From: Escherichia coli
GTDB taxonomy: Bacteria; Pseudomonadota; Gammaproteobacteria; Enterobacterales; Enterobacteriaceae
DNA: 64,000 nucleotides
Assembly (NCBI RefSeq): GCF_022846255.1
Contig: NZ_AP025682.1
Reading direction: 5' to 3' (one strand)
Shown here in pieces: positions 7,207 to 53,114 of the stretch. Numbering within the stretch: the stretch's first letter is position 1; every line of letters begins with the position of its first letter. Under the pieces are notes generated by a model. It ran no database searches. It saw only the letters and a list, made by a program, of their open reading frames with translations, and was not told the DNA's origin. The translations under genes were made by a program, and so were the position numbers.

Positions 7207-7429
7207 CGGTTTTTCTGTCTATTTGGGGCAGTGGCGGTAACGTCATCCTGAAAAATGTGGCGCGGCACACTGCGATAAAAAAGAGGGCCTTAAAGATATC
7301 ATGAAGGCCCCCGGCAAAGTGACAAAATGGGAGGGAATGCGCATAATTTGCGCATGATTTTCAAACAAAAATTATTAAAAAGTGAGCTGGGTCAACTCCC
7401 CTGGAAGATATCCCCAGGGGAGCAATTAT

Positions 7430-17103: not shown

Positions 17104-17314
17104 CCTGCCTTCCTTTGATACAATTCGTAACAGGTTACTATCATCATAAAAAAGCTCAACCCGATGAACTCGCTAAAAATGAGACAAATCATTTATATCT
17201 CGAAAAAACTTGTTACAATCATGAGCGCTACACCGAACTTAACCATATAAATTATGTGTGTTTTGTTTATTTTTTAAACAATTACAACTATCCATTATTT
17301 ACACAGGTATCAAA

Positions 17315-18967: not shown

Positions 18968-18973
18968 TCGATC

Positions 18974-19681: not shown

Positions 19682-19684
19682 GAG

Positions 19685-25554: not shown

Positions 25555-25566
25555 CTCATATCAACC

Positions 25567-28500: not shown

Positions 28501-30003
28501 TTGCGATTCGCCCTGAAATTTGTCTCTTTTATATCCGTCACGCTCCGTTTCCAGACCACCCAACGTCTTTTGTAGTTTATCGTATGACTGTCTGAGGACA
28601 TGGCTTTCCCTGTCCATCTGCCCTAATTCTTCCTCAAGCGTAGCCTCCTGCTGGCGATGTCTGTCGATTGCCCACTCTAATGTGCCCAAGGCTTCGCCAG
28701 CAGTACGCTCGAAAATCACCTGTAGCGGCCTTTCCGTTTCACTTTGGAATACCTTCAGATCTTCATCTGCCTGGCGGTACTCATTCAGGGCCTTAGCATA
28801 GGCTTTGTAGTCTATAGCAGCGTGAGTAATCTCAATCTGGTGCTGATTGGTATCGGCTTCGTCTTGAAGCGCATCGACTATCGCTTTTTGTTTGTCGAAC
28901 TGATGCTGCACGAGATCATATTCAAGCAGTGCTCTGCGCTTACCTAACTGCTCACGCAGAGACATCGCCTGGCCAATATGTGTTTGCAAACTATCCATGT
29001 TATCTTCAAGCTGCGTCTGTTCAACCTGAGCATCCCCGACAAAGGCTGCGAGATCGCGCATTGCTTCTCGGAAGCCATCATCCAGCAGTTGCTGCTGTGC
29101 CTGGATGCTTTCCAGCTGTTTAGCCGGATCAAGAAACGCCAGCCAGTTAGCCAGCACATCCTTCAGGAAGGACTCGTTACGACGAATCCCCTCTAACTCT
29201 CCCTGACGCTCAACTTCATGCGCTACCAGTTCCCGCAGCCGCTCAGCCGCATCTTTAGACATGGTGCAGGCGAAGAACGCGCCAAGGAAATCATGTTCAG
29301 TTTTGTATTCGATAAAACGGGTCAGGCCACCTTCTTCGGAGTTGAAGGTCACCATTGTTTTGATAAGATCAACGTTAATTTGTTGTTCCAGTAAAAATGC
29401 GCGCCACTCGTTCTGTCTGGTGGTTTTACGCCAATGCATACCGCCTTCACTACCGGCCTTGAGATTAAGCCAGCTATCAAAACTGCGCAGGCTATTGGCA
29501 TAGGGGCGCAGCTCAGAATTGCGTTCCGCGCGGGAATAAGAAGGGACTTCATCAAACGGCGCGCCCATCAGGGAGTCGGGCGCATCACAAATAAACAGTG
29601 TCCGGTCAACATCATCTCCATTACGCTGATGAGCATGTCCTAGTAATAACGTTTGTCCTGATTCATTGACCATCTCAACCAAAACAACAGAGAGTTCTTT
29701 ATAGAAGTAATTGCGGTAGTGGTATTCACTCTGGCGATGATTTGCCAGATATTGGGTGAAGTCACTAACGGACGGCTCAAAAATCGATAACAGCAGCGCG
29801 ATGTAGGTCGACTTACCACCCCCATTCACAAGCTGCTGATAAGTACTGGTCACCACCTTCGCATTCCTGACGGGCGAGCGCAGACCTTCAACAACAGGGC
29901 TACTGACCGCTTGAGACAGGCCAATATAGTCCAGTGTGAGGTCCTTGTAGAAAGCTTCTTCATGGCCTGCACCATCCATATAAACCCGTTTAATCAGCCA
30001 CAT
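25567..30003 (-). CDS. jetC: JetC-like SMC/MukB-family ATPase (Wadjet)
   Basis: 1478 aa; N-terminal P-loop (VNGGGKSTY), very long coiled-coil middle, C-terminal signature/Walker B region (LLADNPLGKSNANDL...IQLIYLTGISDE). Confidence 0.7.
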   Translation of the reverse strand: MWLIKRVYMDGAGHEEAFYKDLTLDYIGLSQAVSSPVVEGLRSPVRNAKVVTSTYQQLVNGGGKSTYIALLLSIFEPSVSDFTQYLANHRQSEYHYRNYFYKELSVVLVEMVNESGQTLLLGHAHQRNGDDVDRTLFICDAPDSLMGAPFDEVPSYSRAERNSELRPYANSLRSFDSWLNLKAGSEGGMHWRKTTRQNEWRAFLLEQQINVDLIKTMVTFNSEEGGLTRFIEYKTEHDFLGAFFACTMSKDAAERLRELVAHEVERQGELEGIRRNESFLKDVLANWLAFLDPAKQLESIQAQQQLLDDGFREAMRDLAAFVGDAQVEQTQLEDNMDSLQTHIGQAMSLREQLGKRRALLEYDLVQHQFDKQKAIVDALQDEADTNQHQIEITHAAIDYKAYAKALNEYRQADEDLKVFQSETERPLQVIFERTAGEALGTLEWAIDRHRQQEATLEEELGQMDRESHVLRQSYDKLQKTLGGLETERDGYKRDKFQGESQRNELCEAGLIQKDETPVAAQYRLELTLRDAKQSEELANTILHQKEQALEAQLNVVREASIEKSEAQQKLILAKQKHQSAVDSALLLAKTYQKLPSSTRHDLDIEDTSWHSELCGLQLDKVLNANAQTLNGMKERLLQARHELDELRVTGHELVAKQVNEALEAFYAAGIARDKLWTFPHYLASAHNDDAQKIAAVIDQNPGRYLSLVALDNVTFEQVHKISEILPWKKAPIAIYLLDEAQDLRRETSELVQVVLSNPDKHGYSQAAYETRLQDLENTVASQEVSVKAAESALKVLESFRNDWSRHYEQYGKHWAGLLDQRELALLILENADAALKQAEHDEQTLRDEKRDVQVRLNNAQQQKIQAEKAHDKVSLFVEKEWAKRETAIMKLEQLAAQIQRSKNTLYTQRERLERLSELEKNKRSEKTLLIIQIGSWSNLCNEPFYSEITATEGMEGRSPEYAHEMAAQAHKKLLEAANGDQVTVLKQQLKDAEQAQRYASDRLTAQPTYNTYPDEVKAAAINELTVINNSIVRLKEQQKQFTQNLISSQVTLQKFSQSCEEASKALDEDFVWEEKPIEIEAIQTSLAEIVNNLYAIEHQIKFLLEQKTLLLRKIENVKERLQNAKTAQAMIQPITPSSAAGLPGRILSITEYADDLAAQCQVYAGLNETLKQQNMRVSTVWGKFRKRIEEELAKDPDARASQEYLRPLDSIATYHEVLGDLERVGTGISQVFEAVQDSLEQFQRSIDLTVTHLTAHLEGAIKLLRRAMSVKIPEDCPVLPGRPIIKMTDRLNDVAADIRGFASSRLQQWIARGQIPRAPNRDALTADLVQSVFGEGELEVRLLKTNASRPQWTPVTRLEGSGGQRLTSAFLLFVTVGKVREYDTGISSAGFLLADNPLGKSNANDLMRIQTQMAKAYKIQLIYLTGISDENAQSMFDNHLFLNKVQKLRRRDLVTVDKERHALWAASLAAKPQFDPVI

Positions 30004-30005
30004 AC

Positions 30006-30902
30006 TTAAATCTCCGTCAAGCGTTGCGTTTCTGTGGTTCCAGTTGTAACTGGACGTTCATTGAGCGAAGGAAACTCCAGGGTATCTGCTAATGCTGCAA
30101 GATCGCTTTCAGCTAAATCGGACGACCGTTCTTCTACGGCTGGACTGATGCTCATGACAAAGCGCACCGTCTCTTCGATGCCAGTATGGCGCAGATAATG
30201 TTTGAGTTTTTGGGTCGGATACCAGTCGGACTCTCCCGACAAACTGCTGTCTTCGGCCAGAAAGCCTTCCTCCTGCAGCAGTTGTATCCAGCGCGTTGCC
30301 ATTTCTGTTTGCGAGCGAATACTTGAGACACGCCCTACCTTTTCGTCGTGAATACGGGGAATACGTTCTTCCTGCACAAACCTGGCCGCCATAAGTAGGC
30401 CATCTACGGTATCGTCACCCTCGGCCTTGCGCTGGGCAATCACCTGGTCGGCAACATTATTGAGCCTGGCTACCACCGAGGCTGCATTAATGGCGTTACT
30501 CTGACCGAACTCGACACGAACGGTGTCTGGAGTTGGAAACAAATCAGCCAGCAACGCAATCAGAGTTAAGCCTGCAAACAGGCGCTGTTCTTTCCGTTCC
30601 TTACCCTGTTGCTCAGCCATTGTTTCAGGTAGCAAGCGTTTGTTCAGCCAACCCAAAGATGGGGAAAACGGACCTCGGCCATCTGCAGCCAGTAATACCC
30701 CGTAGGTCTCATGAATCCCGAGATACCGCAATTTCATACCTGTCGCGACGCCACGGATAATCTCTGTGAACAGGGCATCACCTTGCAGATCAAGAGCACG
30801 TTGAATCAGCTCATCCCCCATTTTATATCCCAGTGAATTCATAATTGCCTGCGTGGCAATCTCGGCGTAGCGTTTAGTTTGTTGATGCGCGTTGTCGTAC
30901 AT
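30006..30902 (-). CDS. jetB: JetB-like (MksE-like) subunit (Wadjet)
   Basis: 298-aa ORF translationally coupled between jetA (4-nt overlap) and jetC (3-nt gap); assignment by size and operon position. Confidence 0.55.
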   Translation of the reverse strand: MYDNAHQQTKRYAEIATQAIMNSLGYKMGDELIQRALDLQGDALFTEIIRGVATGMKLRYLGIHETYGVLLAADGRGPFSPSLGWLNKRLLPETMAEQQGKERKEQRLFAGLTLIALLADLFPTPDTVRVEFGQSNAINAASVVARLNNVADQVIAQRKAEGDDTVDGLLMAARFVQEERIPRIHDEKVGRVSSIRSQTEMATRWIQLLQEEGFLAEDSSLSGESDWYPTQKLKHYLRHTGIEETVRFVMSISPAVEERSSDLAESDLAALADTLEFPSLNERPVTTGTTETQRLTEI

Positions 30903-30904
30903 AA

Positions 30905-32371
30905 CTACTCCTCAAAGGGGTATAAGGGAGCAACCGTTAACAGTTTGATATTGTTAGCCCGCCAGAGCGTTGTTTCGATAGCGCCGTCTATCTCCACTTC
31001 TATTGCGGGATCGCTGTTAGCTGCCAGGCTGCCAATATGGAGTAAACAAACCTGTTGCTCTTGTTCGGATAATTCTTCGCCCTCATAGGCGTCAAAAACA
31101 TCTCTAAAGCTCACATGCCCCCAATTCTTCAATCGGTCACTAACCCAATCGCTGCATTTTTTAATGACAGATTCAGGGATACCTCGCAGGTTGGTTTCAA
31201 TAGCTACAGGCTGATCGGTGAGGTCCTGTATCTCATGTGGAAGCGCCTGTTCAAATCTATCGAGATAAAGGTTCAGCAGCGCCTCAAGGTCAAACAGAAT
31301 GTGCCGATCATCATCCTGTCTTCGGGGAGCCAACAGGCGTGCGGTGAGATCATCGATTTCCTTTTCGACAGTGTCGGGGGAATGAGACAGCAAGGGCTTG
31401 AGTGCACCTTTTTCCAGTGTTTCCCGAAAGAGGGTATTATCTCTGGGAATAATGAGTTTCAGACGAGCTCGCTCAAAATCTTTATTCACATCCAGTAAGC
31501 AGTCTTGATAGCGCTGCGTAAAAGCGCAGACCTCAGCAAAAATCTCCTGTGCTCTACGTAGCTTATTTAATTTGTCGGGATTTAATTTCGAAATTCCTTC
31601 AACCAGCATTTCGGTAATGGCCGACATTGAGTTCTGGATATGTTCCAAAACCTCTCGGGTTTTATCAAAGGAATCATTGAGTACGGGACGGATATCGTGT
31701 GCATAAGATGCACTCAAATCACCAGACTGGGCGGCACGCACTTTCATCCGCATTCCAATCAGATATTGCTCCAGTTGCCGCTGTGTTGATTGGATTTGGT
31801 GTACTGCCTTGTCGATCTCTCCGCGACGGATCGTTTTAAGCGTGCGCCAGGCCAGAATCGCAGCGCGTTCTATCGGCGTTTCATCCAAGCGCAGGGTATA
31901 GAACAACATTCCTTCATCAGTCAGCGACCAGAGAATATCATCTGAGCCGGATAGCTGGTCATAGCGTACCAGACGGACTATCTGCTCTTCGGAATGCGTT
32001 CGTTGCGAGAAATCATAATAACGGAGGCGGAAAGGATCTTTGATCGCCACAAAAATCTTGCTGGCCACTTGTGCGTAGTCGGGTTCTTCTTGTCCCGGAT
32101 AGGCTTCATTGAGGTGCCCAACCAGACATAACTCCGCTTCCTTACGCGTCATTCCAGGCCGGCGCTCGCGGTCAGCATAATAAAGCATGGCGTCAAAGAG
32201 ATACATGATTGCCGCCAGCGCATCAAGCTCAACACCATCGAACGGATTTCGCTGAAGGGCGCTATATATTGAATCCAGCGTCCGCACGACCAGCAAGGCG
32301 TGAGACTGAATAGACAGCTCACGACGTGCCATTGATTCATTACGAGCCTGCTCCAAAAACCCTAGCGACAT
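30905..32371 (-). CDS. jetA: JetA-like (MksF/kleisin-like) subunit (Wadjet)
   Basis: 488-aa ORF, first gene of the operon; assignment by size and position upstream of JetB/JetC/JetD. Confidence 0.55.
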   Translation of the reverse strand: MSLGFLEQARNESMARRELSIQSHALLVVRTLDSIYSALQRNPFDGVELDALAAIMYLFDAMLYYADRERRPGMTRKEAELCLVGHLNEAYPGQEEPDYAQVASKIFVAIKDPFRLRYYDFSQRTHSEEQIVRLVRYDQLSGSDDILWSLTDEGMLFYTLRLDETPIERAAILAWRTLKTIRRGEIDKAVHQIQSTQRQLEQYLIGMRMKVRAAQSGDLSASYAHDIRPVLNDSFDKTREVLEHIQNSMSAITEMLVEGISKLNPDKLNKLRRAQEIFAEVCAFTQRYQDCLLDVNKDFERARLKLIIPRDNTLFRETLEKGALKPLLSHSPDTVEKEIDDLTARLLAPRRQDDDRHILFDLEALLNLYLDRFEQALPHEIQDLTDQPVAIETNLRGIPESVIKKCSDWVSDRLKNWGHVSFRDVFDAYEGEELSEQEQQVCLLHIGSLAANSDPAIEVEIDGAIETTLWRANNIKLLTVAPLYPFEE

Positions 32372-32417
32372 AACATTCTCCCTCTGAGACGGAAGCCACT
32401 ATAGTACTCCCCTGCCA

Positions 32418-32440
32418 ATTAAGCAAAGAAACTTTGCTTA
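32418..32440. promoter_or_regulatory. Perfect palindrome in the jetA/regulator divergent promoter region (candidate operator)
   Basis: ttaagcaaag-aaa-ctttgcttaa (10-bp arms, 3-bp spacer) followed by a T9 run; lies 47 bp upstream of jetA and ~105 bp upstream of the divergent regulator gene. Confidence 0.4.
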
Positions 32441-32546
32441 ATTTTTTTTTATAGCAATGTTATTTGTTTTGATGTCATTCGCCTTCTATACTCAGTCGGT
32501 ATATCAAACCGCAATTGATTAACCTGCAAATAAGAATAAAACTGAT

Positions 32547-33440
32547 ATGTACTACTCAAAGTTTCTTGAGAAACACAAATCCCCCCTCAGCCACGCACAA
32601 TGGTTGCGCTTGCGCTATATTGAGCGCCAGCTACTGTGGGAACGAAAAGTCACTTCGCGCATGATTGCTGAAGAGTTTGGCGTCTCGGCGCAACAAGCTC
32701 GTACTGATGTAAGAACCTATATGGAGGTCGCTCCAGGCAATGCTATTGAGAAGGGGGCCGGCCGAAAAGGGTATTTCCCCAGTACGACGTTTACGCCTGT
32801 TTTGCTGGGAGACAACGATCTGGTCTGGCGTGCGACGGTAGAATTTCAACCGCCGCAAGCGGCCCACGCGCAGGAAATCCCGCTCATCCATCGCGCCGTG
32901 CATAGCCGCACGCTGGCAATTTTTTTGTCAGCAATCGAACAGAAAGGACAAGTAAAAGTGACTTATGCGTCAATGGAAAACCCGGAAGGCATATCTCGTA
33001 CACTAAGCCCTACGGTAATTATCACCGTTAACGGGCGTCAGCATGTGCGAGCCTATGACTGGGGAAGTTCGGCGTTTAAGGACTTTGTTTTGGCGCGATT
33101 TCTGGACTCGCCGGAACTGATTGTTCCTGCACCCGCCCCGCCACGCAAAGATACCGCGTGGGAGGTCATAATCCCCGTGCGTTTTATCGCAAATCCAACA
33201 CTAAACAAAGCGCAACAAGAGGTAATTAAGCGGGACTATTTACTTGAACCCTCTGAATTCAACATTCGTGCACCAATGATTTTTTATTTATGCCCTGAAA
33301 ACAATCTGCCTAAAACAGATGATGAATATGCACAAGCTACTGACGCCAGCAGCCACGGCCCCTTTATCTACCCTGTTCTAGCTGTGCACGCCCAAACAGG
33401 GGAGCCTATTCATAAGTACCGCCATGCAGGTGAGAGATAG
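32547..33440 (+). CDS. HTH transcriptional regulator with WYL-like domain (BrxR/CapW-like)
   Basis: HTH segment (SRMIAEEFGVSAQQARTDVRTYM) followed by WYL-like core (VRAYDWGSSAFKDFVLARF); divergent from jetA. Confidence 0.45.
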   Translation: MYYSKFLEKHKSPLSHAQWLRLRYIERQLLWERKVTSRMIAEEFGVSAQQARTDVRTYMEVAPGNAIEKGAGRKGYFPSTTFTPVLLGDNDLVWRATVEFQPPQAAHAQEIPLIHRAVHSRTLAIFLSAIEQKGQVKVTYASMENPEGISRTLSPTVIITVNGRQHVRAYDWGSSAFKDFVLARFLDSPELIVPAPAPPRKDTAWEVIIPVRFIANPTLNKAQQEVIKRDYLLEPSEFNIRAPMIFYLCPENNLPKTDDEYAQATDASSHGPFIYPVLAVHAQTGEPIHKYRHAGER

Positions 33441-33948: not shown

Positions 33949-34818
33949 TCAATCAAGAGGGATGGTCCACATTGACGTATCAAAATCGATCTCTGACCAG
34001 CGAGCAAAACGTAGCTCACTGGAGCGAATAAAGATAAGCAGAGTGAGTTCCGTTGCCCAGCGGGTTAGCGGCCTGCCGGTATAGCCGTCTATTTTCTCAA
34101 GTAACTCAGGGATGCGCTTTAACTCCAGCGCCGGACGATGCTGTCGATTACTGGAAGCAACCGCCCCCGCCATCTCTTGTGCCGGGTTATAATCAATTAA
34201 TCCACTTTGCACTGCATAACGCATGATGGCCGTGGTGCGCTGTTGAAGGCGGGAAGCCACTTCAAAACGTCCAGATTTCTCCACGGCTTTAATGGGAATT
34301 AACAGATCGCGGGTGCCCAGTTCAGCAATATTGCGAGCAACAATTGTTGGGAAGATATTGTCCTCCAGGCTCTTTTTTCCACGATTAGCATGATCTTCCG
34401 ACCATTTTTGGTTGGTTACGAGCCACTCTCTGGCAACCTTCTCGAAAGTAATAATCTCTTTCGCCTGCTCTTCTTTCACAGCACGTTTATGCTCACGAGG
34501 ATCGATACCAGCAGCGACCAGCTTTCTGGCCTCTTCCCTTTTCTTCCGCGCATCCGCCAGCGAAACATCCGGGTAAACGCCGAACGCCATCAAATGTTGT
34601 TTACCACCAAAACGGAAACGAAATCGCCAATACTTTGAACCGCCAGGTTTTACAAGTAAAGACATGCCGTCGCCGTCAACAAGTGAATACTCTTTCTCCT
34701 CAGGTTTTGCAGGACGAACTTTAGTATACGTTAGGGCTATAGTGGTCTTCCTTCCATTGGTATCTCGTGAGTATACAAGCAATATCGAATCGGCAAATAT
34801 ACTTATAAGTATACTCAC
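33949..34818 (-). pseudogene. P4-type tyrosine integrase, C-terminally truncated (intB-like remnant)
   Basis: Residues align with the N-terminal two thirds of the intact integrase at 51593-52840 (GSKYWRFRFRFGGKQ..., RLQQRTTAIMRYAVQSGLIDYNPAQ, LTLLIFIRSSELRFARWSEIDF) but end at ...WTIPLD before the catalytic region. Confidence 0.75.
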
Positions 34819-34903
34819 AAGCCTGTTGATGTGGGTTGAGTCAGGTTGACTTCAGTTGAGGAGAAAAGCTGGAAAAGCCTTGCGTAGCGCGGATTTCAGG
34901 CAT

Positions 34904-34927
34904 AAAAAAAGACCTCAGTTGAGGTCT
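34904..34927 (-). terminator. Intrinsic terminator (ancestral leuX terminator relic)
   Basis: Hairpin agacctca-gt-tgaggtct flanked by A7 on the plus strand, i.e. stem plus T7 on the minus strand; lies just downstream (minus sense) of the partial tRNA copy. Confidence 0.6.
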
Positions 34928-34940
34928 ATTTACATACTTT

Positions 34941-34963
34941 TGGTGCGAAGGCCGGACTCGAAC
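34941..34963 (-). repeat. 23-bp direct repeat of the leuX 3-prime end (att site / island junction)
   Basis: tggtgcgaaggccggactcgaac matches the 3-prime end of the tRNA at 53030-53054 except for one deleted base. Confidence 0.8.
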
Positions 34964-35685
34964 ATATTAATTATCCCGTTGTATTTAAGGCTATTTTATC
35001 AAAATCATTATTGAAGTACCATCATTAATACCATCATAGGTATTGTTCTCCTTTGGCAACAGTTCTTTGATATCGAAATACTTTAACGAACTTTTTATGA
35101 CATCATACTTTGAAGAAAAAATCACATACTGATTTTCATCCAGTACATCTTGCAAGACAAGGTATAAAACAGGGACTACGATTAAAAATAGCAAAGTCAT
35201 TCACTAAATGAATTCAAAATCAGTGATGTTCTTATCTGCAAGAATATAATATATTTAAAAGATTATAAGCAATATATAAATAATAATATAGCTTTAAAAA
35301 AACACACATGAATTAGAAGTTAAATACATTAATTAAAGAAACAAATAAGTAAGAATTTTGTTTTTAAATAACTCATGCAAACGCATCGTTTATTTATATT
35401 AAAGGAAAATGATGAAATCCAATCTAAATTTAAATAGCTACATTACAAACGAATAGAAAAAGAAGCATTTTCCATGTTAAACTACTATCTTGGTGAAGAC
35501 AGGGGGTATAGCCTTCTGCGGTAGCCTACGCTCTTCGAATGCAAAGCAAGAAAATAACCTTTATAATCAAATTGTTATGCAATGCGCTTGTAGAGCAAAG
35601 GTATCTTAAACGAATAGGTTTAACAGTTAAAGCCTCTTTACATAGGCTGAACAAGGGCAGTACTTGAAAATGATAAAATTGGGGT

Positions 35686-37371
35686 ATGTTTAAAATTATG
35701 AATGCCCATAGTTTAGAGATGAGAAAAGAGTTAGGAGCATATTATACTCCAAGTGCTCTTAGTCAAGTGATGTCAGATTGGGCAATTAGAAGACCAACTG
35801 ATAAAATACTTGAGCCAAGTTTTGGAGGCTGTGGCTTTTTAGAAAGCTGTGAAAAGAGCCTCATGGAGATAGGCTGCATAAACCCAATGGAAAATTTATT
35901 TGGGGTTGATGTAGACCAAAAAGCCTTTGATACTCTCAAAAAAAAATATGGGCATTTATTAATAAAAAAACATTTCATTTTAAGTGATTTCATTAACGTA
36001 TTTCCAAAAGATTTTGGCATTGAAGATTTTGAGGTTATCATTGGGAACCCTCCTTATATCTCTATGCATAATATGAGTTATGAACAAAGGAAGTCCTGTG
36101 AAAAAGTTTTTGCTGACTCACCTTTTAAAACAAAAACATTAGGACGCAATGCAAGTCTTTGGGGGTTTTTCTTACTCCATGCATTAAGCTTCATTCGAGA
36201 AAATGGACGAATAGCGTGGGTATTACCGAGTAGTTTTTTAAATGCCTATTATGCGAAAGAGCTTATAAGAATTTACAAAAATCATTTTAACCATCTAAAA
36301 ATAATAAAGATAAATGAAAGACTTTTCAAAAATGAAGGTGCCGATGAAATGTCAGTACTTTTTTTATGCGATGAGTTTCACAGGACACCTATCAATAATG
36401 GATACGTTTCAATTGGATTTGCTGACACATTAAATGAACTAACCAGCATAATGACTGGAACTAAAGAAAACAAATTAAATAGCTCTGAAAATTACAAATA
36501 TAATATATTAGATATTGACACATTAAATGTGATATCGTCTATAACAGAACATAAGTACAGTTTAAAAATACAGGATATTGCTGATATAAAGATTGGGATG
36601 GTAACCGGCATGAACAACTTCTTTATATTGGATCAAAATCAAATTTTAAAACATAATTTAGACAATAAACATTTTAGACCAGTTATTTCACGATTTTCAC
36701 ATTTGAAGGGAATTCACCACACATTAAAAAGACATACGAAGTTAATTGCAGACAATAAAAAAGGATTGCTATTACACGTCAGTCCAGATGATTTATATGA
36801 AAAACATAGTCCGTTGAGAAAATATTTATCACAAGTTGATAGAAAAGAACGAGTCAAAAACCGCACATTCAAAAAACGAAAAAAGTGGTTTCAACCAGAT
36901 GATGGTATTTACCCAGACGCATTTTTTTCATATATGGTTCATGAGTTTCCCAGAATGATATTAAATAAAGGGAAAGTTAACTGCACTAACTCAATACATC
37001 GTATCTTTTTCAAAGATATAGCATCTAATAAATTAAAAAAAGCATGTTGCATATCTCTTTTATCAACATTTTCACAACTTTCTGCCGAACTTGAAGGTCG
37101 GTCATATGGCTCAGGTGTGCTAAAAATAGAGCCTACCGCAGGAAAGAACATATCATTCTTAATTAAAGATGATTTAATACACGAGTTAAGCAACTTAAGT
37201 AAAGAAATAGATCAATTGCTTTTAAATAATGAAACAAGCAATGCCACTGCTTTAGTTGATAAGTTTTTTGTTGATAAGGGACTAATTAGCTTAGATGAAT
37301 TGAAAAGTCTTAAAAAAGGGTTATTCAGATTAAGAAAAGATCGATATAAAGGGGTCAAAAATTATGAGTGA
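35686..37371 (+). CDS. N6-adenine DNA methyltransferase (Eco57I-like gamma-class) with C-terminal extension
   Basis: Motifs GAYYTP, ILEPSFGGCGFL (motif I-like) and IIGNPPYIS (motif IV, approx 36044-36060); 561 aa; first gene of a tightly overlapping four-gene operon. Confidence 0.8.
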   Translation: MFKIMNAHSLEMRKELGAYYTPSALSQVMSDWAIRRPTDKILEPSFGGCGFLESCEKSLMEIGCINPMENLFGVDVDQKAFDTLKKKYGHLLIKKHFILSDFINVFPKDFGIEDFEVIIGNPPYISMHNMSYEQRKSCEKVFADSPFKTKTLGRNASLWGFFLLHALSFIRENGRIAWVLPSSFLNAYYAKELIRIYKNHFNHLKIIKINERLFKNEGADEMSVLFLCDEFHRTPINNGYVSIGFADTLNELTSIMTGTKENKLNSSENYKYNILDIDTLNVISSITEHKYSLKIQDIADIKIGMVTGMNNFFILDQNQILKHNLDNKHFRPVISRFSHLKGIHHTLKRHTKLIADNKKGLLLHVSPDDLYEKHSPLRKYLSQVDRKERVKNRTFKKRKKWFQPDDGIYPDAFFSYMVHEFPRMILNKGKVNCTNSIHRIFFKDIASNKLKKACCISLLSTFSQLSAELEGRSYGSGVLKIEPTAGKNISFLIKDDLIHELSNLSKEIDQLLLNNETSNATALVDKFFVDKGLISLDELKSLKKGLFRLRKDRYKGVKNYE

Positions 37372-39673
37372 AGATATTCTTTTTTTGAAGGATAAGATGA
37401 AAGCCCTCCTGGATAATGAGGCTCTCGATTATGATAAAGTATTAGAAACAGCAGTAAAAATCACCGAAAAAGACAACAACAATATTAGATTTTCTGTAGA
37501 TGCGAATTTAGTTAGAAGATTAGGTGAGCAGTTAGTCGCTAAAAAAACTACTGCTGTCAGTGAATTGGTGAAAAATGCTTATGACGCAGATTCGACATTA
37601 GTAAATGTATATTTCGAATTGAACGAAGCAAATCCTCGAATAGTCATATTCGATGACGGCACAGGTATGTCAAAGGAAGATATTATCAATGGATTCATGC
37701 GAATAAGCACAAGTGAAAAAGAAGATAACTCTGTTTCAGAACGATATCAGAGACTAAGAGCAGGTAGAAAAGGTATTGGGCGTTTTTCTACACAGCGATT
37801 AGGAAATTATTTAAAAATAATTACCAAGCAAGAAAATGAAGAGTTAGGATATTTAATAGAAATTAACTGGCAGCAGTTTTCAAAAAAGAAAAATATATCC
37901 TTCATTGCTAACACTATCTCAAAAATCGATGTGGATTTCATTCATGGAACAAAAATAATAATAGAAGATCTGAATGATAAAGATTGGTCTGATGGGAACA
38001 TAAAAACGGCTTATAAATATATTAAGAGCATTATAAATATTGCCCCAAGCGAGACAGATCCAGGTTTCCAAGTAAAGTTCTATTATAAAAATGCCAATGG
38101 CTATGAATTAGTTGCAGATGAGAAAACTGAAATTTTTTCTGATAGTGATGCTCATATTACAGCAACACTTGAAAATGGAAATGCTGTAGTGAGAGTTAGC
38201 AGTGAAACCCTTGGCATAAAAAATGAAAGCATAGATGTATGGTATGATGAAAAAAATAACATACGAAAATTCTCACATATAAACTCTCCAGTAAAGCTTG
38301 ATGCATACTATTTCTCATTAGCAACAGTTAACTCCAGAAAACAAGCGGCATATTTACGTGAAAATGGCGGAATAAAAATCTATCGAAATGGATTCAAGGT
38401 TTCTCCTTATGGAGAGCAGTATGATGACTGGACGGCTCTTGATGACTCGGTTCGAAGGAGAAAGATATTACCCCCTCATGGTAATCAAAACTTCTTTGGA
38501 CACGTCAAAGTTGAAGACCTAAATGGAATAGACTTTGAAGAAACGTCCTCAAGGGAAGGTCTGATTCATACCGATGCCTTTCAAGAACTTCGCCTCTTTG
38601 TATATAAAGCACTGACGGCTGCGGTAATAAGAATTAGTGAAGCCAGAAATATAAAAATAAATCCAAATGACCGTAGCTATGTTAAAGAAACTAAACCAAC
38701 AATATCAGTCAAAGATAAATTAAATATTGTATCTGAAACGATAAGCTCGGTTAGTAAATTGGTAGATGCAGCAACATCTGTTGATGACGTTTCAAGTGAT
38801 GGTGTCATTAATAACATTGAAGATAAAAGTATAAGAAACAAAATTATTGAAGATCTCCATGAAGCCGCAGATGAGCTAAAACAAGCGAGTGTGATATCTC
38901 AATCTTTAATCGATGAAATTGAGCTTCTTAGAGTGCTTGGCGCTATGGGCCTTGCTATTGGTGAGTTTACACACGAAATAAATTTATCAATAACAAGTTT
39001 GAGTATTAACGTTCAAAACCTTAAACAGTCTAAATTATTAGAGGAAGATAGAGACTCTGCTCTAAATAGCCTTGAAAATAATATTGCAACATTAAAATCA
39101 TTTACTAAATTTTTTGACAGTACTATACGTGAGAATGTAAACAGAAATAAGAAAGTTATTGAGATAAGAGACTCTATTGAGCCATTTTATGAATCGATGA
39201 AACCAATAATAGAACGCAAAGGAATTCAGTTTGCAATACATTATGAAGGTTATGAACTTTTTACGAAGCCGATTCATGTTTCAGAGCTATATTCTGTATT
39301 TATAAATCTCTTTACGAATGCATATAAAGCAATACTTCGTTCTGGAACAAATCCACGAAAAATGTCTTTAACTGCGAAAAAAGATAGTGAAGATATAATT
39401 ATCCGATTCGAAGATAGCGGTGATGGAATTGAACCTGCAAATAGAGAAAGAGTTTTTGAGCCTTTCTATACAACAAGTACACCATCAGGACCTTTTGAAA
39501 GTGATGATTTATCATTAAAAGGAATGGGATTGGGGTTATCAATCGTACGTGATCTCGTTGAATCCATGTCTGCAGAAATATCTATAGTTGATGCATCCGA
39601 TGGTTTTACAACGTGCTTTGAGTTGAGAATTCCAAAAGCTGATGATAAGGAAATACCAGATGACATCTATTAA
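37364..39673 (+). CDS. Dual Bergerat-fold ATPase: N-terminal MutL/HSP90/MORC-like GHKL module plus C-terminal histidine-kinase core (HisKA-like H-box + HATPase_c)
   Basis: N-terminal motifs ELVKNAYDAD (approx 37562-37591), DDGTGMS, GRKGIGRF; C-terminal H-box GEFTHEINLSITSL (approx 38961-39000), N-box LFTNAYKAIL, G1 EDSGDGIE, F-box FEPFYTT, G2 GMGLGLSIV; no obvious TM segment; start overlaps MTase stop by 8 nt. Confidence 0.7.
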   Translation: MSEDILFLKDKMKALLDNEALDYDKVLETAVKITEKDNNNIRFSVDANLVRRLGEQLVAKKTTAVSELVKNAYDADSTLVNVYFELNEANPRIVIFDDGTGMSKEDIINGFMRISTSEKEDNSVSERYQRLRAGRKGIGRFSTQRLGNYLKIITKQENEELGYLIEINWQQFSKKKNISFIANTISKIDVDFIHGTKIIIEDLNDKDWSDGNIKTAYKYIKSIINIAPSETDPGFQVKFYYKNANGYELVADEKTEIFSDSDAHITATLENGNAVVRVSSETLGIKNESIDVWYDEKNNIRKFSHINSPVKLDAYYFSLATVNSRKQAAYLRENGGIKIYRNGFKVSPYGEQYDDWTALDDSVRRRKILPPHGNQNFFGHVKVEDLNGIDFEETSSREGLIHTDAFQELRLFVYKALTAAVIRISEARNIKINPNDRSYVKETKPTISVKDKLNIVSETISSVSKLVDAATSVDDVSSDGVINNIEDKSIRNKIIEDLHEAADELKQASVISQSLIDEIELLRVLGAMGLAIGEFTHEINLSITSLSINVQNLKQSKLLEEDRDSALNSLENNIATLKSFTKFFDSTIRENVNRNKKVIEIRDSIEPFYESMKPIIERKGIQFAIHYEGYELFTKPIHVSELYSVFINLFTNAYKAILRSGTNPRKMSLTAKKDSEDIIIRFEDSGDGIEPANRERVFEPFYTTSTPSGPFESDDLSLKGMGLGLSIVRDLVESMSAEISIVDASDGFTTCFELRIPKADDKEIPDDIY

Positions 39674-40763
39674 CCTACTTTATATCGATGATGATCAGCC
39701 TCAGCAAGTAAAGGGTTTAATTGAAGCAATAATCAGTAAAGCGAGTTTTGATTTAAATATAACTCATAAACCGCCGACGAAAATGAGTGAAATAGCCATA
39801 GAGTTGAGACAAGGTTATGATGGTATCATCATAGATCAAAAACTTGACAGCTTTGTTGAGGGAGTAGAACCAGTTGATTACTTTGGTGCCGCGTTAGCAC
39901 AAAATTTGCGAACACTCATGGCGGGTAAGTCAGATAATATATCTTATAAGCCAATAATTTTACTCTCTCTCGAAAGCTTATTAATTGAATATTATAATCC
40001 CGATTCAAGCTCGCATGATCTATTTGATTTAGTTTTGAGTAAAAGCATATTAGAACAACCAGAATTGTTAGAAAAAAAAGTTCACTTAATAAAATCTATT
40101 GTGAATGCTTACAAACGTGCACATTCGGAAGACTCGTTATATCAATTGCTTTCTCTGAGCAGTAATTATTCATTGCTTGATAAAAGATTTGAAATATATA
40201 TTTCTCAGTATGATAAAGATATACATAAGCTCGTCACATCCATACACTCCACACTTCTGAGAAGTAGTGGCATGTTAGTTTCTGAGATAACTTTGGCAAC
40301 CAGACTGGGTATTAATATTGAAGAATCGCCAGACTGGCACCAAGTAATTGGGCACCTTGAGGAATATAAATACAATGGCATATTCTCTGATTATTATAAA
40401 AGATGGTGGTGGGCAGATGTAGAGTTGTGGATAAATAAAAAGCTTAACTGCCCAATAATTAAAGGATTAACCTCAGAAAAAAGAGTGGAGATCATCAAAG
40501 AAAAACTTGGCTTAGAACGATTGATGCCAATTCATAGCGTACATCCAGGCCAAAGCACCAAGTTTTGGGTTAATTGTATCATCAGTAAAGAACCTCTTGA
40601 TACAATAGATGCTCTTCGTGCATCATCTATGGAATTAAAACCTTGGGAAGATGATAAATACCTTTCAATTAAAACAGTGTTAGAGAGACGGGCCGAAAAA
40701 TATAAAGTACATCCAGAAGATAGAACAAAATTGGATCGAATTCGGGCGAGGTTTAAATTATAA
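39642..40763 (+). CDS. Receiver (REC)-like domain protein with unassigned ~250-aa C-terminal domain
   Basis: CheY-like pattern: LLYIDDD (beta1, acidic pocket), GIIIDQKL (candidate phospho-acceptor Asp), KPIILLSLES (beta4 Ser); divergent REC, so call is tentative; overlaps kinase gene stop. Confidence 0.5.
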   Translation: MIRKYQMTSINLLYIDDDQPQQVKGLIEAIISKASFDLNITHKPPTKMSEIAIELRQGYDGIIIDQKLDSFVEGVEPVDYFGAALAQNLRTLMAGKSDNISYKPIILLSLESLLIEYYNPDSSSHDLFDLVLSKSILEQPELLEKKVHLIKSIVNAYKRAHSEDSLYQLLSLSSNYSLLDKRFEIYISQYDKDIHKLVTSIHSTLLRSSGMLVSEITLATRLGINIEESPDWHQVIGHLEEYKYNGIFSDYYKRWWWADVELWINKKLNCPIIKGLTSEKRVEIIKEKLGLERLMPIHSVHPGQSTKFWVNCIISKEPLDTIDALRASSMELKPWEDDKYLSIKTVLERRAEKYKVHPEDRTKLDRIRARFKL

Positions 40764-41506
40764 TGAACAATAATACAACTTTGTTAGACGATATGTGTAG
40801 GCTCAGGGACTTTTTATATGATAGCCGCATATGCCCAGATATTAATCCTCTCAACCGTTTAATCAGTAAACTTAATGCAAATCTCCACTCCGAAACAGGG
40901 GAGGACTTTGAATACTCTTTAGACGATTTAGTATTTTATCTTAGCGAAAAATCTGGAACAATTTGTCCGACCCAAATTACACCCAAAGAAAACCCTATTG
41001 AAATACATTTGGAACTTATATTAAAAAGTGAAGGCCCTTATGAATTTTCGAAGATTAAAGAACTTTCAGGGCAATTACGACTTAAAGCTGAGTGGATCAA
41101 TGACACAACAGAAAAAATTGAGATAAAAACATCACATAGTGCTTGGCATTTTGATTATCATGTTCCTCAAATGGGGGATGGCGTAAATTCATTTACTCAT
41201 CCTCAATTCCATTTACAAAATGGAGGAAACAGGCTGACTGATAATTTAAATGACTATGGAGAGTTAATGATTCTTGATGCTCCAAGACTACCTTTACCTC
41301 CTATGGATGTGATATTAGCCATTGACTTTATTATTTCAAATTTCTTTGGTTCTATTTGGCAACAAGCATTATGTGATTCAGAATACATTGATGTAGTTAA
41401 AAGAGCACAAAAAGCATGGTGGAAACCTTATTATGAAGGTATAAGTCAACACTGGTCTGGCAATGGCTCAGGAATATCCAATATCCTAATTCCAAACCTT
41501 CTGTAG
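40763..41506 (+). CDS. Hypothetical protein (247 aa), fourth gene of the operon; possible effector
   Basis: ATG overlaps preceding stop (ATAATG); His-rich segment HFDYHVPQMGDGVNSFTHPQFH; no confident motif. Confidence 0.6.
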   Translation: MNNNTTLLDDMCRLRDFLYDSRICPDINPLNRLISKLNANLHSETGEDFEYSLDDLVFYLSEKSGTICPTQITPKENPIEIHLELILKSEGPYEFSKIKELSGQLRLKAEWINDTTEKIEIKTSHSAWHFDYHVPQMGDGVNSFTHPQFHLQNGGNRLTDNLNDYGELMILDAPRLPLPPMDVILAIDFIISNFFGSIWQQALCDSEYIDVVKRAQKAWWKPYYEGISQHWSGNGSGISNILIPNLL

Positions 41507-45756: not shown

Positions 45757-47388
45757 TTATTCTCCTTTTTTTATTCTCTTATGGAATTCATACCATCTAT
45801 CAGCATTTATGTTCCCATCATTTTTATCATACAGTGTTCTTTTTGAAATTTTATCGTGAATTTTTGAAATCGTTTCGTTATCTAAACCAGAATTCTCAAT
45901 CGGATAATGTTCACACGGCTTAAACGCATATGAGTGCTTGCAGTAGCCATGTTTTGATACCAGTACTGCACCACTACTAAGTGAATCAAACTCATTAAGA
46001 ACCACCACTGGAATATCCTTTATTCTGTGCTCATTAACACACACTGATAACTTTTGTTCTCTTATTGCTTTAGACATTTGAAGATGCGATCTGTGGTCAT
46101 AAGAAAAATTTTGAGAAATAAGCTTACGTCCAGACCAGCGAGCAATACTAAACTCATCCATACCATTTATTTGAGCAAAAGTGTTGAGAAGATGCCTCAG
46201 TTGATGTGTTCTTAGCAAATATGGGCTACCATCATCATTTATATAACCATGTCTTTTAAATACATTTAAATATCCTTTTATATAATCAGAATCAACGATA
46301 TCAGTTTTAAAAAAATTCGTTGTAGGTCTGAATAACTTATCTAACATTTCCTTTTTATTTTGATTTAACTGTCCTTCAGTTAACAAGCAAAGCGCATTAG
46401 AATATTTGATTTTCTTCTCTCTATCATACCAAAAGAGATCTGGAGGTATATTTTCTTTAAGGGTTCCCATCGTTGAATTAGAGTAATTCTTTTGAATTTC
46501 AGCAGCCAATAATCTCGCTTGACTTGATAATTCTTTTAATCTGCTAATAGCCTTTTTTGCTACAGGTATCATTAAAGTTGGAATCCATTTTATATTGCCT
46601 TCATACCCTTTTGCTGAAAAAAATCTTAAACCGTATCTTTGAATGCCCTTTCCATCACATTCTGTAATTTCACAATCCACTGGCAAAGCTAAAATTTCCG
46701 ATATCCTACTCGGTGCACACATAAGTAAAGCAAGCACAGATGTAGTAAATATATCTCTTGACGATAATTGTTCATCCCGCTTTGAAAAAATCTCAGCAAT
46801 CGCAATAACTGATTTGATATCAGGCAATCTAGAATGGCCTTCCAGTGAAGAATCATAACCAGTCCAAGACTGAGTAATCCTATACCTAATTGGACTTATC
46901 CAAAATAAATAAGATGAGTTAGTCATCCTATTATCATTTAAAAATGAACTCAATTTCTCAAGTTCTTTCCCAATAGCAAATGCATGTGCTTTAGAATACT
47001 TTTCAGAGGCTATCCTTATGCATTCATCAAAGATTGAATTGTTGCAATAGTTTACATTAGCTTCCATATTGATTTTAAGTAAAACGAATTCGACAATCTT
47101 CAACATTGATAATGTTGAGTGTTTCGTCTTAGATTTATTGAATGAATGCACATGCAACATATATGCTTTAGCAAAATTAATAAAGCTATCATCTAAGCAT
47201 TCTTTGCTGTTTAGGTTGTTTTTTGAGTTAAACTTAGTAAACCTATATAAACCTTTCCATTTATTGCTTTCCCAAGAAGTTGTTAAATTATTATTAGAAA
47301 TAGTACTCTTACAAAACTCGATGAACTTAATAACATTATCGTGAGGGTTGTTTTTATTGCTTGGTTCAAAAATAAATATATTGTTCAT
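45757..47388 (-). CDS. Tyrosine recombinase (543 aa), third of three tandem recombinases
   Basis: Catalytic-region motifs PSRISEIL (box I Arg), HQLRHLLNT (HxxR), downstream Tyr region; 4-nt overlap with the upstream recombinase gene. Confidence 0.65.
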   Translation of the reverse strand: MNNIFIFEPSNKNNPHDNVIKFIEFCKSTISNNNLTTSWESNKWKGLYRFTKFNSKNNLNSKECLDDSFINFAKAYMLHVHSFNKSKTKHSTLSMLKIVEFVLLKINMEANVNYCNNSIFDECIRIASEKYSKAHAFAIGKELEKLSSFLNDNRMTNSSYLFWISPIRYRITQSWTGYDSSLEGHSRLPDIKSVIAIAEIFSKRDEQLSSRDIFTTSVLALLMCAPSRISEILALPVDCEITECDGKGIQRYGLRFFSAKGYEGNIKWIPTLMIPVAKKAISRLKELSSQARLLAAEIQKNYSNSTMGTLKENIPPDLFWYDREKKIKYSNALCLLTEGQLNQNKKEMLDKLFRPTTNFFKTDIVDSDYIKGYLNVFKRHGYINDDGSPYLLRTHQLRHLLNTFAQINGMDEFSIARWSGRKLISQNFSYDHRSHLQMSKAIREQKLSVCVNEHRIKDIPVVVLNEFDSLSSGAVLVSKHGYCKHSYAFKPCEHYPIENSGLDNETISKIHDKISKRTLYDKNDGNINADRWYEFHKRIKKGE

Positions 47389-53029: not shown

Positions 53030-53114
53030 TGGTGCCGAAGGCCGGACTCGAACCGGCACGTATTTCTACGGTTGATTTTGAATCAACTGCGTCTACCGAT
53101 TTCGCCACTTCGGC
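53030..53114 (-). tRNA. leuX: tRNA-Leu (leuX-like, 85 nt with long variable arm)
   Basis: Acceptor stem GCCGAAG/CUUCGGC, T-arm GGTTCGAGTCC and 3-prime CCA read on the minus strand; sits between ahr and a P4-type integrase as at the K-12 leuX locus. Confidence 0.9.

What the first reader, a model, noticed from the sequence alone, without database searches (positions are those of the whole stretch)
35686..41506. AT-rich four-gene operon joining an adenine methyltransferase to a kinase/receiver pair: candidate phosphorelay-coupled methylation-associated defence system
Four ORFs on one strand overlap stop-to-start (37364/37371, 39642/39673, 40763), so they are almost certainly co-translated. Gene 1 is a gamma-class N6-adenine MTase (NPPY). 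Gene 2 carries two Bergerat-fold ATPase modules, one of them a complete histidine-kinase catalytic core. Gene 3 has a receiver-like domain plus an unassigned domain. Gene 4 is unassigned. No recognisable restriction nuclease, helicase or PglZ/BrxC-type partner is present, so this is not a conventional type I/II/III R-M, BREX or DISARM layout. The operon sits in the cargo of a mobilizable tRNA island beside other defence systems. Kinase-containing methylation-associated defence systems have been reported (I recall one named MADS), but I cannot verify from memory whether this compact composition matches any named system.
Basis: partly seen in the sequence, partly recalled or inferred. Interest (0 to 1): 0.85.

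Follow-up and report, generated by a model that had tools for sequence, protein, structure and literature searches.

The report
Ambrosia-like methylase plus kinase-relay defence cassette
This four-gene block is a self-contained candidate anti-phage cassette that joins a DNA adenine methylase to a kinase-and-receiver signalling pair and an unknown effector; it is an untested sister of the recently described 'Ambrosia' system, and its three-gene core is also found attached to DNA phosphorothioation genes.

Summary
Four overlapping + strand genes lie at 35686-41506 in a 31-35% GC block of an E. coli leuX tRNA island that also carries Druantia III, Zorya II and Wadjet III.

- **g1:** a full-length gamma-class N6-adenine methylase.
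- **g2:** a paraMORC-type GHKL ATPase fused to a complete histidine kinase. Both ATP sites and the H-box His537 are at least 95% conserved.
- **g4:** no solved-structure relative. It has a conserved His/Asp cluster and weak links to DUF2290.

In about 50 loci from many phyla the trio g2-g3-g4 is always contiguous. Its partner varies: a g1-type methylase upstream, a different methylase downstream, or SspBCD phosphorothioation genes upstream. The cassette fills P2-type prophage hotspots on its own.

It is not MADS, BREX, Detocs or a type II R-M system. The closest validated relative is Ambrosia (2025 preprint). Only AbrB is clearly homologous to g2 (29% identity). The receiver protein, fourth gene and methylase differ, and there is no XRE gene.

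Verdict: a new variant of a known kind, with function untested.

The parts
35200..35685 (+). AT-rich leader upstream of g1, presumed to hold the promoter. It contains no XRE/AbrR-like gene.
   Evidence: Promoter-like hits are no more frequent than in shuffled sequence. The only small ORFs are a 42-aa ORF at 35539-35667 (+) and a 69-aa ORF at 34991-35200 (-), and neither looks HTH-like.
35686..37371 (+). g1: gamma-class N6-adenine DNA methyltransferase with a C-terminal Eco57I-type target-recognition domain.
   Evidence: Pfam gives N6_Mtase 1.4e-15, Eco57I 2.7e-13 and M_Eco57I_C 6.6e-19. PADLOC MTase_II PDLC03267 matches at 2e-89 over the full length. The FGGCG and NPPY motifs are visible in the translation.
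37364..39673 (+). g2: soluble paraMORC-type GHKL ATPase fused to a histidine kinase.
   Evidence: It is 29% identical to Ambrosia AbrB over residues 43-403, E 1e-36.
37487..37981 (+). g2 N-terminal GHKL (HATPase_c_3) ATPase domain, residues 42-206.
   Evidence: HATPase_c_3 scores 3e-22. It matches only the first 170 positions of the BbrUII/HgiDII restriction-enzyme model, 96 bits against a cut-off of 550. E67, N71, D74, D97, G99, G101 and G134-F141 are invariant in 29 homologues.
38945..39118 (+). g2 dimerisation/phosphotransfer helix pair with the H-box. The His537 codon is at 38972-38974.
   Evidence: HEF_HK (PF19191) matches residues 528-585 weakly, E 0.007. H537 and E538 are invariant.
39284..39640 (+). 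g2 C-terminal kinase catalytic (HATPase_c) domain, residues 641-759.
   Evidence: HATPase_c scores 1.4e-17. The N, G1, F and G2 box residues N648, N652, D684, G686, G688, F698 and G720-L725 are invariant.
39660..40055 (+). g3 receiver domain, residues 1-132. The acceptor Asp59 codon is at 39834-39836.
40056..40763 (+). g3 C-terminal part, residues 133-367: an HTH-like segment (LATRLGI...W) followed by an unassigned domain.
   Evidence: There is no Pfam, NCBIfam, PADLOC, PHROG or PDB sequence match. Invariant residues include L216, G217, S223, W226, R248, W303, C306 and D314. The HTH reading is an inference from the sequence pattern and the predicted helices.
40763..41506 (+). g4: DUF2290-related protein, the presumed effector. 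Its conserved His/Asp cluster (H129, D131, H133, H146-P147, H150) is encoded at 41147-41212.

Best explanation
I read this as a self-contained, horizontally mobile anti-phage cassette of the Ambrosia kind.

**Parts.**
- g1 methylates adenines at its own recognition sequence.
- g2 is a cytoplasmic sensor. Its MORC/MutL-like N-terminal ATPase engages DNA or an infection cue, and this switches on the C-terminal histidine kinase, which autophosphorylates His537.
- The phosphoryl group passes to Asp59 of g3, a receiver protein with an HTH-like DNA-binding segment and an extra domain.
- Phospho-g3 then induces the operon, or licenses g4, or both. g4 is a DUF2290-related protein whose conserved His/Asp cluster I take to be a metal-dependent nuclease site.

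**Role of the modification.** Across the family, the g2-g3-g4 trio is a portable module wired to a DNA-modification module. That module is one of two unrelated methylase families or SspBCD phosphorothioation. My favoured reading is that the modification marks resident DNA as self.

**Shown here:** domain identities, conservation of catalytic residues, strict synteny, partner swapping, location in defence hotspots, and homology of g2 to AbrB.

**Inferred:** sensing, phosphotransfer, the nuclease role of g4, and the meaning of the methyl mark.
For: **Gene order.** The trio is contiguous and in the same order in every locus whose contig reaches far enough. It pairs with a g1-type methylase upstream (13 loci), a second methylase family downstream (28 loci) or SspBCD upstream (6 distinct loci). 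In a g2 tree the three partner types form three coherent clades, so the trio tracks its modification module.

**Autonomy.** The four genes alone fill P2-type prophage hotspots in Serratia (L006) and V. cholerae (L050). They also sit in conjugative elements (L004, L051) and next to Shedu and Gabija-like genes (L049, L052).

**Island context.** The window is a defence island carrying Druantia III, Zorya II and Wadjet III.

**Validated relative.** g2 is homologous to Ambrosia AbrB at E 1e-36. In Ambrosia, mutating the GHKL Asn40, the receiver Asp60 or the nuclease abolishes phage defence.

**g4.** It occupies the position of the Ambrosia nuclease. Its HPxxH core resembles DUF2290, which partners a helicase in a validated anti-T7 system.

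**Decay pattern.** L047 has frameshifted g2 and g4 beside an intact methylase. This is the pattern expected when a toxic restriction arm is lost first.
Against: - No experiment exists for this cassette.
- g4 has no detectable nuclease fold, and its link to DUF2290 is weak: hhalign probability is 17% and 0 of 43 members match the Pfam model. The function of DUF2290 is itself unknown.
- In Ambrosia, phage grown on cells expressing the methylase alone stayed sensitive, and the operon was induced on infection. The authors therefore favour transcriptional control and a non-classical role for methylation.
- In two of three informative Ssp-linked loci, PbeA/PbeC-like restriction genes lie right next to the trio. 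There the trio need not be the restriction partner.
- The system is rare in E. coli, present in 1 of 5426 complete genomes.
Confidence: 0.6

Rival explanations
1. Methylate-then-cut, the model its authors proposed for Ambrosia. The operon is silent until infection. The kinase/receiver pair then switches on transcription, g1 methylates incoming DNA, and the effector attacks DNA that carries that mark. On this reading the modification is the target, not a self label.
For: Ambrosia reporters are induced on infection, and methylase-exposed phage are not protected. g3 has an HTH-like segment that could act as a transcription factor.
Against: - g4 is unrelated to the type IV-like HNH nuclease on which that model rests.
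- SspBCD partners of the same trio belong to systems where the modification is a constitutive self mark.
- The Ambrosia test used the methylase alone, which may be inactive without its partners.
- In L047 the methylase survives while g2 and g4 decay.
Confidence: 0.15
2. Purely regulatory or epigenetic unit. The kinase and receiver are an ordinary two-component system that controls an orphan methylase, or neighbouring restriction genes, in response to a cellular signal. g4 is an accessory protein, and the unit has no direct antiviral effector.
For: - Earlier papers speculated that kinase genes next to Ssp genes regulate SspE (PMC7464106) or form part of an Ssp region that lacks its nuclease (PMC12421847).
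- Pbe-like restriction genes flank the trio in L002 and L021.
- g3 has an HTH-like segment.
Against: - The methylase-linked cassette stands alone in prophage hotspots with no other restriction gene to regulate.
- g2 carries a conserved MORC-like ATPase typical of R-M-associated proteins, not a ligand-binding sensor domain.
- g4 is as strictly conserved as the kinase.
- In Ambrosia, the gene in g4's position is essential for defence.
Confidence: 0.12
3. A conventional type II R-M pair in which g2 is the restriction endonuclease. This idea arises because its N-terminus matches the BbrUII/HgiDII family. On this reading g3 and g4 are unrelated passengers.
For: NCBIfam NF050001 (BbrUII/HgiDII) gives E 2e-27 and PADLOC REase_II PDLC03419 gives E 2.5e-15 on g2 residues 42-206.
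Against: - The match covers only the shared GHKL ATPase domain (model positions 2-170 of 659) and scores 96 bits against a cut-off of 550.
- The rest of g2 is a histidine kinase.
- g3 and g4 are co-conserved with g2 in every locus.
Confidence: 0.03
4. A member of MADS, the system the first reader recalled.
For: g1 has weak partial hits to mad2/MAD2 methylase models.
Against: The MAD2 model scores 24 bits against a cut-off of 720. The PADLOC mad2 hit covers only the catalytic core. No mad1 or mad3-8 model hits g2, g3 or g4.
Confidence: 0.01

Closest known systems
Ambrosia (AbrR-AbrA-AbrB-AbrC-AbrD) of Pseudomonas aeruginosa; van den Berg et al., bioRxiv 10.1101/2025.09.30.679545
   Same: - The gene logic and order match: N6-adenine methylase, then a GHKL(HATPase_c_3)+histidine-kinase protein, then a receiver protein with an acceptor Asp near position 60, then a fourth effector-position gene.
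- g2 and AbrB are homologous through the ATPase and the middle domain (29% identity, E 1e-36).
- Ambrosia is experimentally shown to block phages, and all of its genes are required.
   Different: - There is no XRE regulator gene here.
- The methylase is a different family. It is 561 aa with an Eco57I-type C-terminal domain, against 448 aa for AbrA, and is 23% identical over the catalytic core only.
- The receiver protein is 367 aa with an extra 230-residue part, against 209 aa for AbrC. Only about 43 columns align (E 1e-3).
- The fourth gene is DUF2290-like, not HNH.
- This trio also pairs with SspBCD, which is not mentioned in the parts of the Ambrosia preprint read here.
HEF_HK / Response_reg_2 'two-component-like elements' associated with R-M systems and paraMORC ATPases (Bellieny-Rabelo et al. 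2021, PMC8011034)
   Same: The kinase-like protein has the same HATPase_c_3 + H-box + HATPase_c architecture. It is soluble, lies adjacent to a receiver-like protein with no other known domain, and is linked to DNA methylases.
   Different: - That family is linked mainly to C5-cytosine methylases and Vsr or HNH_2 nucleases.
- Here the partners are N6-adenine methylases or SspBCD.
- g2 matches HEF_HK only weakly (E 0.007).
- None of 20 g3-family members matches Response_reg_2.
- The parts of that paper read here (the Results) mention no g4-type gene.
Helicase + DUF2290 anti-T7 system (Rousset et al. 2022, PMC9122126)
   Same: g4 shares the HPxxH...PR...NFFGxxW core with a genuine DUF2290 protein. 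Some g4-family members are named DUF2290 in UniProt. Both systems occur in P2/P4-type and Vibrio prophage hotspots.
   Different: There is no helicase here. Neither the Pfam nor the PADLOC DUF2290 models detect g4.
SspABCD-SspE / SspFGH and Dnd-Pbe phosphorothioate defence systems
   Same: Relatives of the trio sit directly downstream of sspBCD, where SspE or SspFGH would be expected. The logic is the same: a modification module plus an exchangeable partner module.
   Different: The window itself has a methylase and no Ssp genes. The trio shares no domains with SspE, SspFGH or PbeABCD. Pbe-like genes co-occur with the trio in L002 and L021.
Detocs (defensive two-component system)
   Same: A cytoplasmic histidine kinase and a receiver-domain effector are used for phage defence (my own knowledge of the system).
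   Different: There are no PADLOC hits to Detocs proteins. There is no buffer receiver, no nucleosidase effector, and Detocs has no DNA-modification gene.

Membership tests
Ambrosia | AbrB: an N-terminal GHKL ATPase plus a histidine-kinase protein of about 750 aa | tested here: met
   g2 against AbrB residues 1-399 gives 29% identity, E 1e-36, covering g2 43-403. The Pfam architecture is the same.
Ambrosia | AbrC: a short (209 aa) receiver protein with acceptor Asp60 | tested here: inconclusive
   The receiver fold and the acceptor Asp59 are present. However, the profile comparison aligns only 43 columns (E 1e-3, probability 21%), and g3 has an extra 230 residues.
Ambrosia | AbrD: an HNH endonuclease | tested here: not met
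   The g4 profile against AbrD gives probability 0.2%. No HNH model hits g4.
Ambrosia | AbrR: an XRE/HipB-like regulator gene at the head of the cluster | tested here: not met
   No such ORF lies in 34820-35720. XRE genes do precede the module in L002 and L004.
Ambrosia | AbrA: an N6-adenine methylase | tested here: inconclusive
   The enzyme class is the same, but identity is only 23% over the catalytic core (E 9e-5) and the C-terminal part differs.
HEF_HK/Response_reg_2 two-component-like elements (PMC8011034) | A kinase-like protein with HATPase_c_3 + HEF_HK (PF19191) + HATPase_c | tested here: inconclusive
   Both ATPase domains are clear. HEF_HK matches at E 0.007, score 17.3, over residues 528-585.
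HEF_HK/Response_reg_2 two-component-like elements (PMC8011034) | An adjacent protein carrying Response_reg_2 (PF19192) | tested here: not met
   The window g3 has no Pfam match at E<=10. None of 20 g3-family members reaches the listing limit of E<=0.1 for PF19192.
MADS (methylation-associated defence system) | The MAD2 methylase and the other mad genes | tested here: not met
   NF047738 scores 24 bits against a cut-off of 720. PADLOC mad2 gives a partial hit only. g2, g3 and g4 have no mad hits.
Type II R-M, BbrUII/HgiDII-type endonuclease | A full-length match to the restriction-enzyme model | tested here: not met
   The score is 96 bits against a cut-off of 550, and only model positions 2-170 of 659 (the GHKL domain) are matched.
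BREX / DISARM | PglZ, BrxC/PglY and BrxL; or DrmA/B/C helicase and PLD genes | tested here: not met
   Only a weak partial PglX hit on g1 (22.8 bits). Nothing hits g2-g4.
Detocs | The DtcA kinase, DtcB buffer receiver and DtcC receiver-effector | tested here: not met
   No PADLOC match at E<=0.01 for g2, g3 or g4 other than the generic GHKL hits.
DUF2290 (PF10053) superfamily, for g4 | A match to the DUF2290 profile | tested here: inconclusive
   - 0 of 43 members match Pfam.
- 0 of 8 members match PADLOC at E<=10.
- hhalign to a genuine DUF2290 protein gives E 1.4e-3 over the conserved core.
- 3 of 26 AFDB family hits are named DUF2290.
Two-component phosphorelay (functional class) | A conserved H-box His with a complete catalytic domain, and a receiver with the Asp/Asp/Ser-Thr/Lys set | tested here: met

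The most novel reading that the evidence does not exclude
The g2-g3-g4 trio may be a portable, modification-agnostic restriction module. On this reading a MORC-like ATPase clamp reads the modification state of DNA, whether adenine methylation from either of two methylase families or Ssp phosphorothioation. It reports this through a His-to-Asp phosphorelay to a new kind of nuclease, the DUF2290 superfamily, which has a fold not seen in solved structures. That would make it the first R-M-like system in which self/non-self discrimination is transmitted by protein phosphorylation. It would also give a function to DUF2290, and possibly to the nuclease-less Ssp loci of Acinetobacter baumannii global clone 2.
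Probability: 0.25. Interest if true: 0.8.

Novelty: new variant of a known kind. Interest (0 to 1): 0.55.

Why it matters
Defence systems that pair a DNA mark with a two-component phosphorelay have only just been shown to work (Ambrosia), and their mechanism is unresolved. This cassette is a widespread sister lineage. The g3 family has 482 clusters at 50% identity with E<=1e-30, and it occurs in P. aeruginosa, V. cholerae, K. pneumoniae, Aeromonas, Serratia and many Bacteroidota.

It keeps the sensor kinase but swaps the effector and the modification chemistry. Comparing the two lineages could show what the MORC-like kinase senses and whether the mark protects or targets DNA. It could also show what DUF2290 proteins do. 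A further question is whether phosphorothioate and methyl marks can feed the same read-out. Finally, the three core proteins are missing from the copies of PADLOC-DB v2.0.0, NCBIfam and Pfam searched here, so tools that rely on those releases will miss the system.

Tried and rejected
- **HMM libraries.** g3 and g4 gave no hit in Pfam, NCBIfam, PADLOC or PHROGs, even at E<=10 for Pfam and PADLOC.
- **PDB sequence search.** Profile searches with the g3 and g4 alignments found nothing meaningful.
- **SspFGH.** I considered it as a possible identity for the Ssp-linked trio and rejected it. Its proteins are Walker-A and FtsK-like, not GHKL/kinase.
- **paraMORC1-5 (Iyer 2008).** I found no mention of a kinase fusion in the passages searched.
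- **VcSduA/paraMORC3 Shedu.** It has a different architecture, GHKL plus a PD-(D/E)xK nuclease.
- **MADS.** The primary paper is not held, so membership was tested with the NCBIfam and PADLOC models instead.
- **tblastn of g3.** There was no match in phage records and one weak match on a Hymenobacter plasmid.
- **Preprint supplement.** I searched the Ambrosia preprint's candidate table for the P. aeruginosa version of this cassette by peptide strings. Nothing was found, but the stored file is truncated.
- **Promoter and terminator scan.** It was not informative, because hits were no more frequent than in shuffled sequence.
Full report
**1. What is in the sequence**

One search lists four + strand ORFs at 35686-37371, 37364-39673, 39642-40763 and 40763-41506. 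I prefer 39660 as the start of gene 3. That ATG follows an AAGGAAA site, it is the RefSeq start in the 99.8% identical copy in E. coli TUM11353, and homologues begin there. The overlaps are then 8, 14 and 1 nt.

The block has 31-35% GC, against about 44-50% in the 10 kb upstream.

The window is an E. coli leuX island:
- tRNA-Leu(CAA) lies at 53030-53114.
- The near-identical record annotates integrases and a relaxase.
- Druantia III (DruH3, DruE3), Zorya II (ZorA2, ZorB2, ZorE2), Wadjet III (JetA3, JetC3) and a WYL protein lie upstream.

Only 1 of 5426 complete E. coli genomes carries the operon.

**2. The four proteins**

*g1* is a full-length member of a REBASE-type gamma N6-adenine methylase family. 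PADLOC MTase_II gives 2e-89, and Pfam finds N6_Mtase, Eco57I and M_Eco57I_C.

*g2* has three recognisable parts:
- an N-terminal HATPase_c_3 domain (E 3e-22);
- a weak HEF_HK match over the H-box helices (E 0.007);
- a C-terminal HATPase_c domain (E 1e-17), with dozens of histidine-kinase models matching residues 525-760.

Its N-terminus also hits the BbrUII/HgiDII restriction-enzyme model. That hit covers only the shared ATPase domain and scores far below the cut-off (96 against 550 bits). In alignments of 42 and 29 homologues, the ATP-binding motifs of both modules and His537-Glu538 are invariant or nearly so. A middle region (YRNGF.V.PYG..DW, SREGL) is conserved as well.

I took a genuine DUF2290 protein from the supplement of the Ambrosia preprint. 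It aligns with the g4 profile over the conserved core HPxxH...PR...NFFGxxW at E 1.4e-3, but with low probability. The conserved residues H129, D131, H146-P147, H150 and R175 look like a metal site. H133 is invariant only in the smaller alignment. The metal-site reading is an inference.

**3. Comparative evidence**

A distant g3 homologue led to a metagenome locus with the same trio g2-g3-g4. Its upstream partner is SspB-SspC-SspD (PADLOC 2e-104, 0 and 2e-91).

A scan of one genome per species gave 42 more loci. Four further loci came from g2 homologues. Scoring all ORFs with the query proteins gave these results:
- The trio is contiguous, co-oriented and in the same order wherever the contig allows.
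- A g1-type methylase lies upstream in 13 loci, mostly Proteobacteria. These include P. aeruginosa, V. cholerae, K. pneumoniae, Aeromonas and Serratia.
- A different methylase family lies downstream in 28 loci, mostly Bacteroidota. It is 23% identical to g1 over the catalytic core only.
- SspBCD lies upstream in 6 distinct loci.
- In a g2 tree the three partner types form three clades.

The methylase-linked cassette alone fills the P2 hotspot between the replication gene and the portal gene in Serratia. It also fills the integrase-cI hotspot of a Vibrio prophage, a hotspot that Rousset et al. described.

The g3 family is large. Among 1.84 billion representatives it has 1070 hits at E<=1e-3 and 482 at E<=1e-30.

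One locus (L047) has frameshifted g2 and g4 beside an intact methylase.

There is a complication. In L002 and L021, PbeA and PbeC-like genes lie right after the trio on the other strand. In L015 a PLD nuclease, a MORC-like ATPase and a helicase do so. The trio therefore need not be the only partner of SspBCD.

**4. What is known**

- *MADS* is excluded by its own models.
- *Bellieny-Rabelo et al. 2021* described HATPase_c_3+HEF_HK+HATPase_c proteins next to receiver-like Response_reg_2 proteins, linked mainly to C5 methylases and Vsr. The g2 architecture matches, but none of 20 g3 relatives matches Response_reg_2.
- *Two papers* noted kinase genes beside Ssp genes in Acinetobacter without resolving them.
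- *Ambrosia* is the closest validated system. It consists of an XRE regulator, an N6 methylase, a GHKL/kinase protein, a 209-aa receiver protein (Asp60) and an HNH nuclease. All are required for defence in P. aeruginosa. The cluster is induced on infection, and the methylase alone does not protect phage.

Using the sequences in that preprint's Table S1, I compared the four proteins with their Ambrosia counterparts:

| This cassette | Ambrosia | Result |
|---|---|---|
| g2 | AbrB | 29% identity, E 1e-36 |
| g3 | AbrC | about 43 columns around the acceptor Asp |
| g4 | AbrD | unrelated |
| g1 | AbrA | catalytic core only |

No XRE gene precedes g1. This is therefore a sister variant of Ambrosia, not a member of it.

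**5. Mechanism**

I favour a defence cassette in which the MORC-like ATPase of g2 senses DNA or an infection cue and activates the kinase. His537 then passes phosphate to Asp59 of g3. Phospho-g3 induces the operon, or licenses g4 as the effector, or both. The linked modification marks self DNA.

The main rival is the methylate-then-cut reading proposed for Ambrosia. A purely regulatory role is less likely, because the cassette stands alone in hotspots and g4 is as conserved as the kinase. None of the functional steps has been tested.

**6. Verdict**

This is a new variant of a known kind, of moderate interest.

Noticed in passing
window 4348-20788 and 24499-33440: The same island carries Druantia type III (DruH3 at 13744-17103, DruE3 at 7430-13753, plus a DrmD/SNF2-like helicase at 4348-7206). 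It also carries Zorya type II (ZorA2/B2/E2 at 17258-20788), Wadjet type III (JetA3 at 30905-32371, JetC3 at 25567-30003) and a WYL-domain protein (32547-33440).
   Followed up: partly
window 33949-34818 (-): A 289-aa ORF resembling the N-terminal part of a P4-type integrase sits just before the GC drop at about 35 kb. It may mark an old insertion boundary of the AT-rich cassette. In E. coli TUM11353 the same cassette sits instead after a type I R-M system.
   Followed up: no
window 45757-49905 (-): Three consecutive overlapping genes lie here. The near-identical record annotates them as a DNA-binding protein and two tyrosine recombinases. The layout resembles a recombinase-in-trio element.
   Followed up: no
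L040 95-4921 (Leptospiraceae MAG): Here the g2 homologue is the C-terminal half of a 1608-aa protein. Its N-terminal 900 residues match the Tiamat protein TmtA (PADLOC PDLC03970, 2e-82). That part has no methylase motif, and no modification gene is visible on the contig.
   Followed up: partly
L047 7604-13687 (Spirosoma telluris): This copy is decayed. g2 is split into 717 and 138 aa, and g4 into 192 and 71 aa. The 647-aa methylase, on the opposite strand, is intact.
   Followed up: partly
L002 10920-16021; L021 12366-16983; L015 11840-16300: Next to the SspBCD-linked trio lie PbeA (E 0 and 4e-291) and PbeC-like genes in L002 and L021. In L015 the neighbours are a DrmC-like PLD nuclease, an MzaB-like GHKL ATPase and a helicase. 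Two partner modules may therefore share one phosphorothioation module.
   Followed up: partly
protein P0121: A full-length g2 homologue (38% identity) is labelled as coming from a Candidatus Hodarchaeota (Asgard archaeon) MAG, on a 4.1-kb contig. This could be horizontal transfer or a binning error.
   Followed up: no
literature: PMC7464106 and PMC12421847: Histidine-kinase genes are reported next to Ssp genes in 211 Acinetobacter strains. [quoted passage not shown] Whether that is the g2-g3-g4 trio could not be checked here.
   Followed up: no
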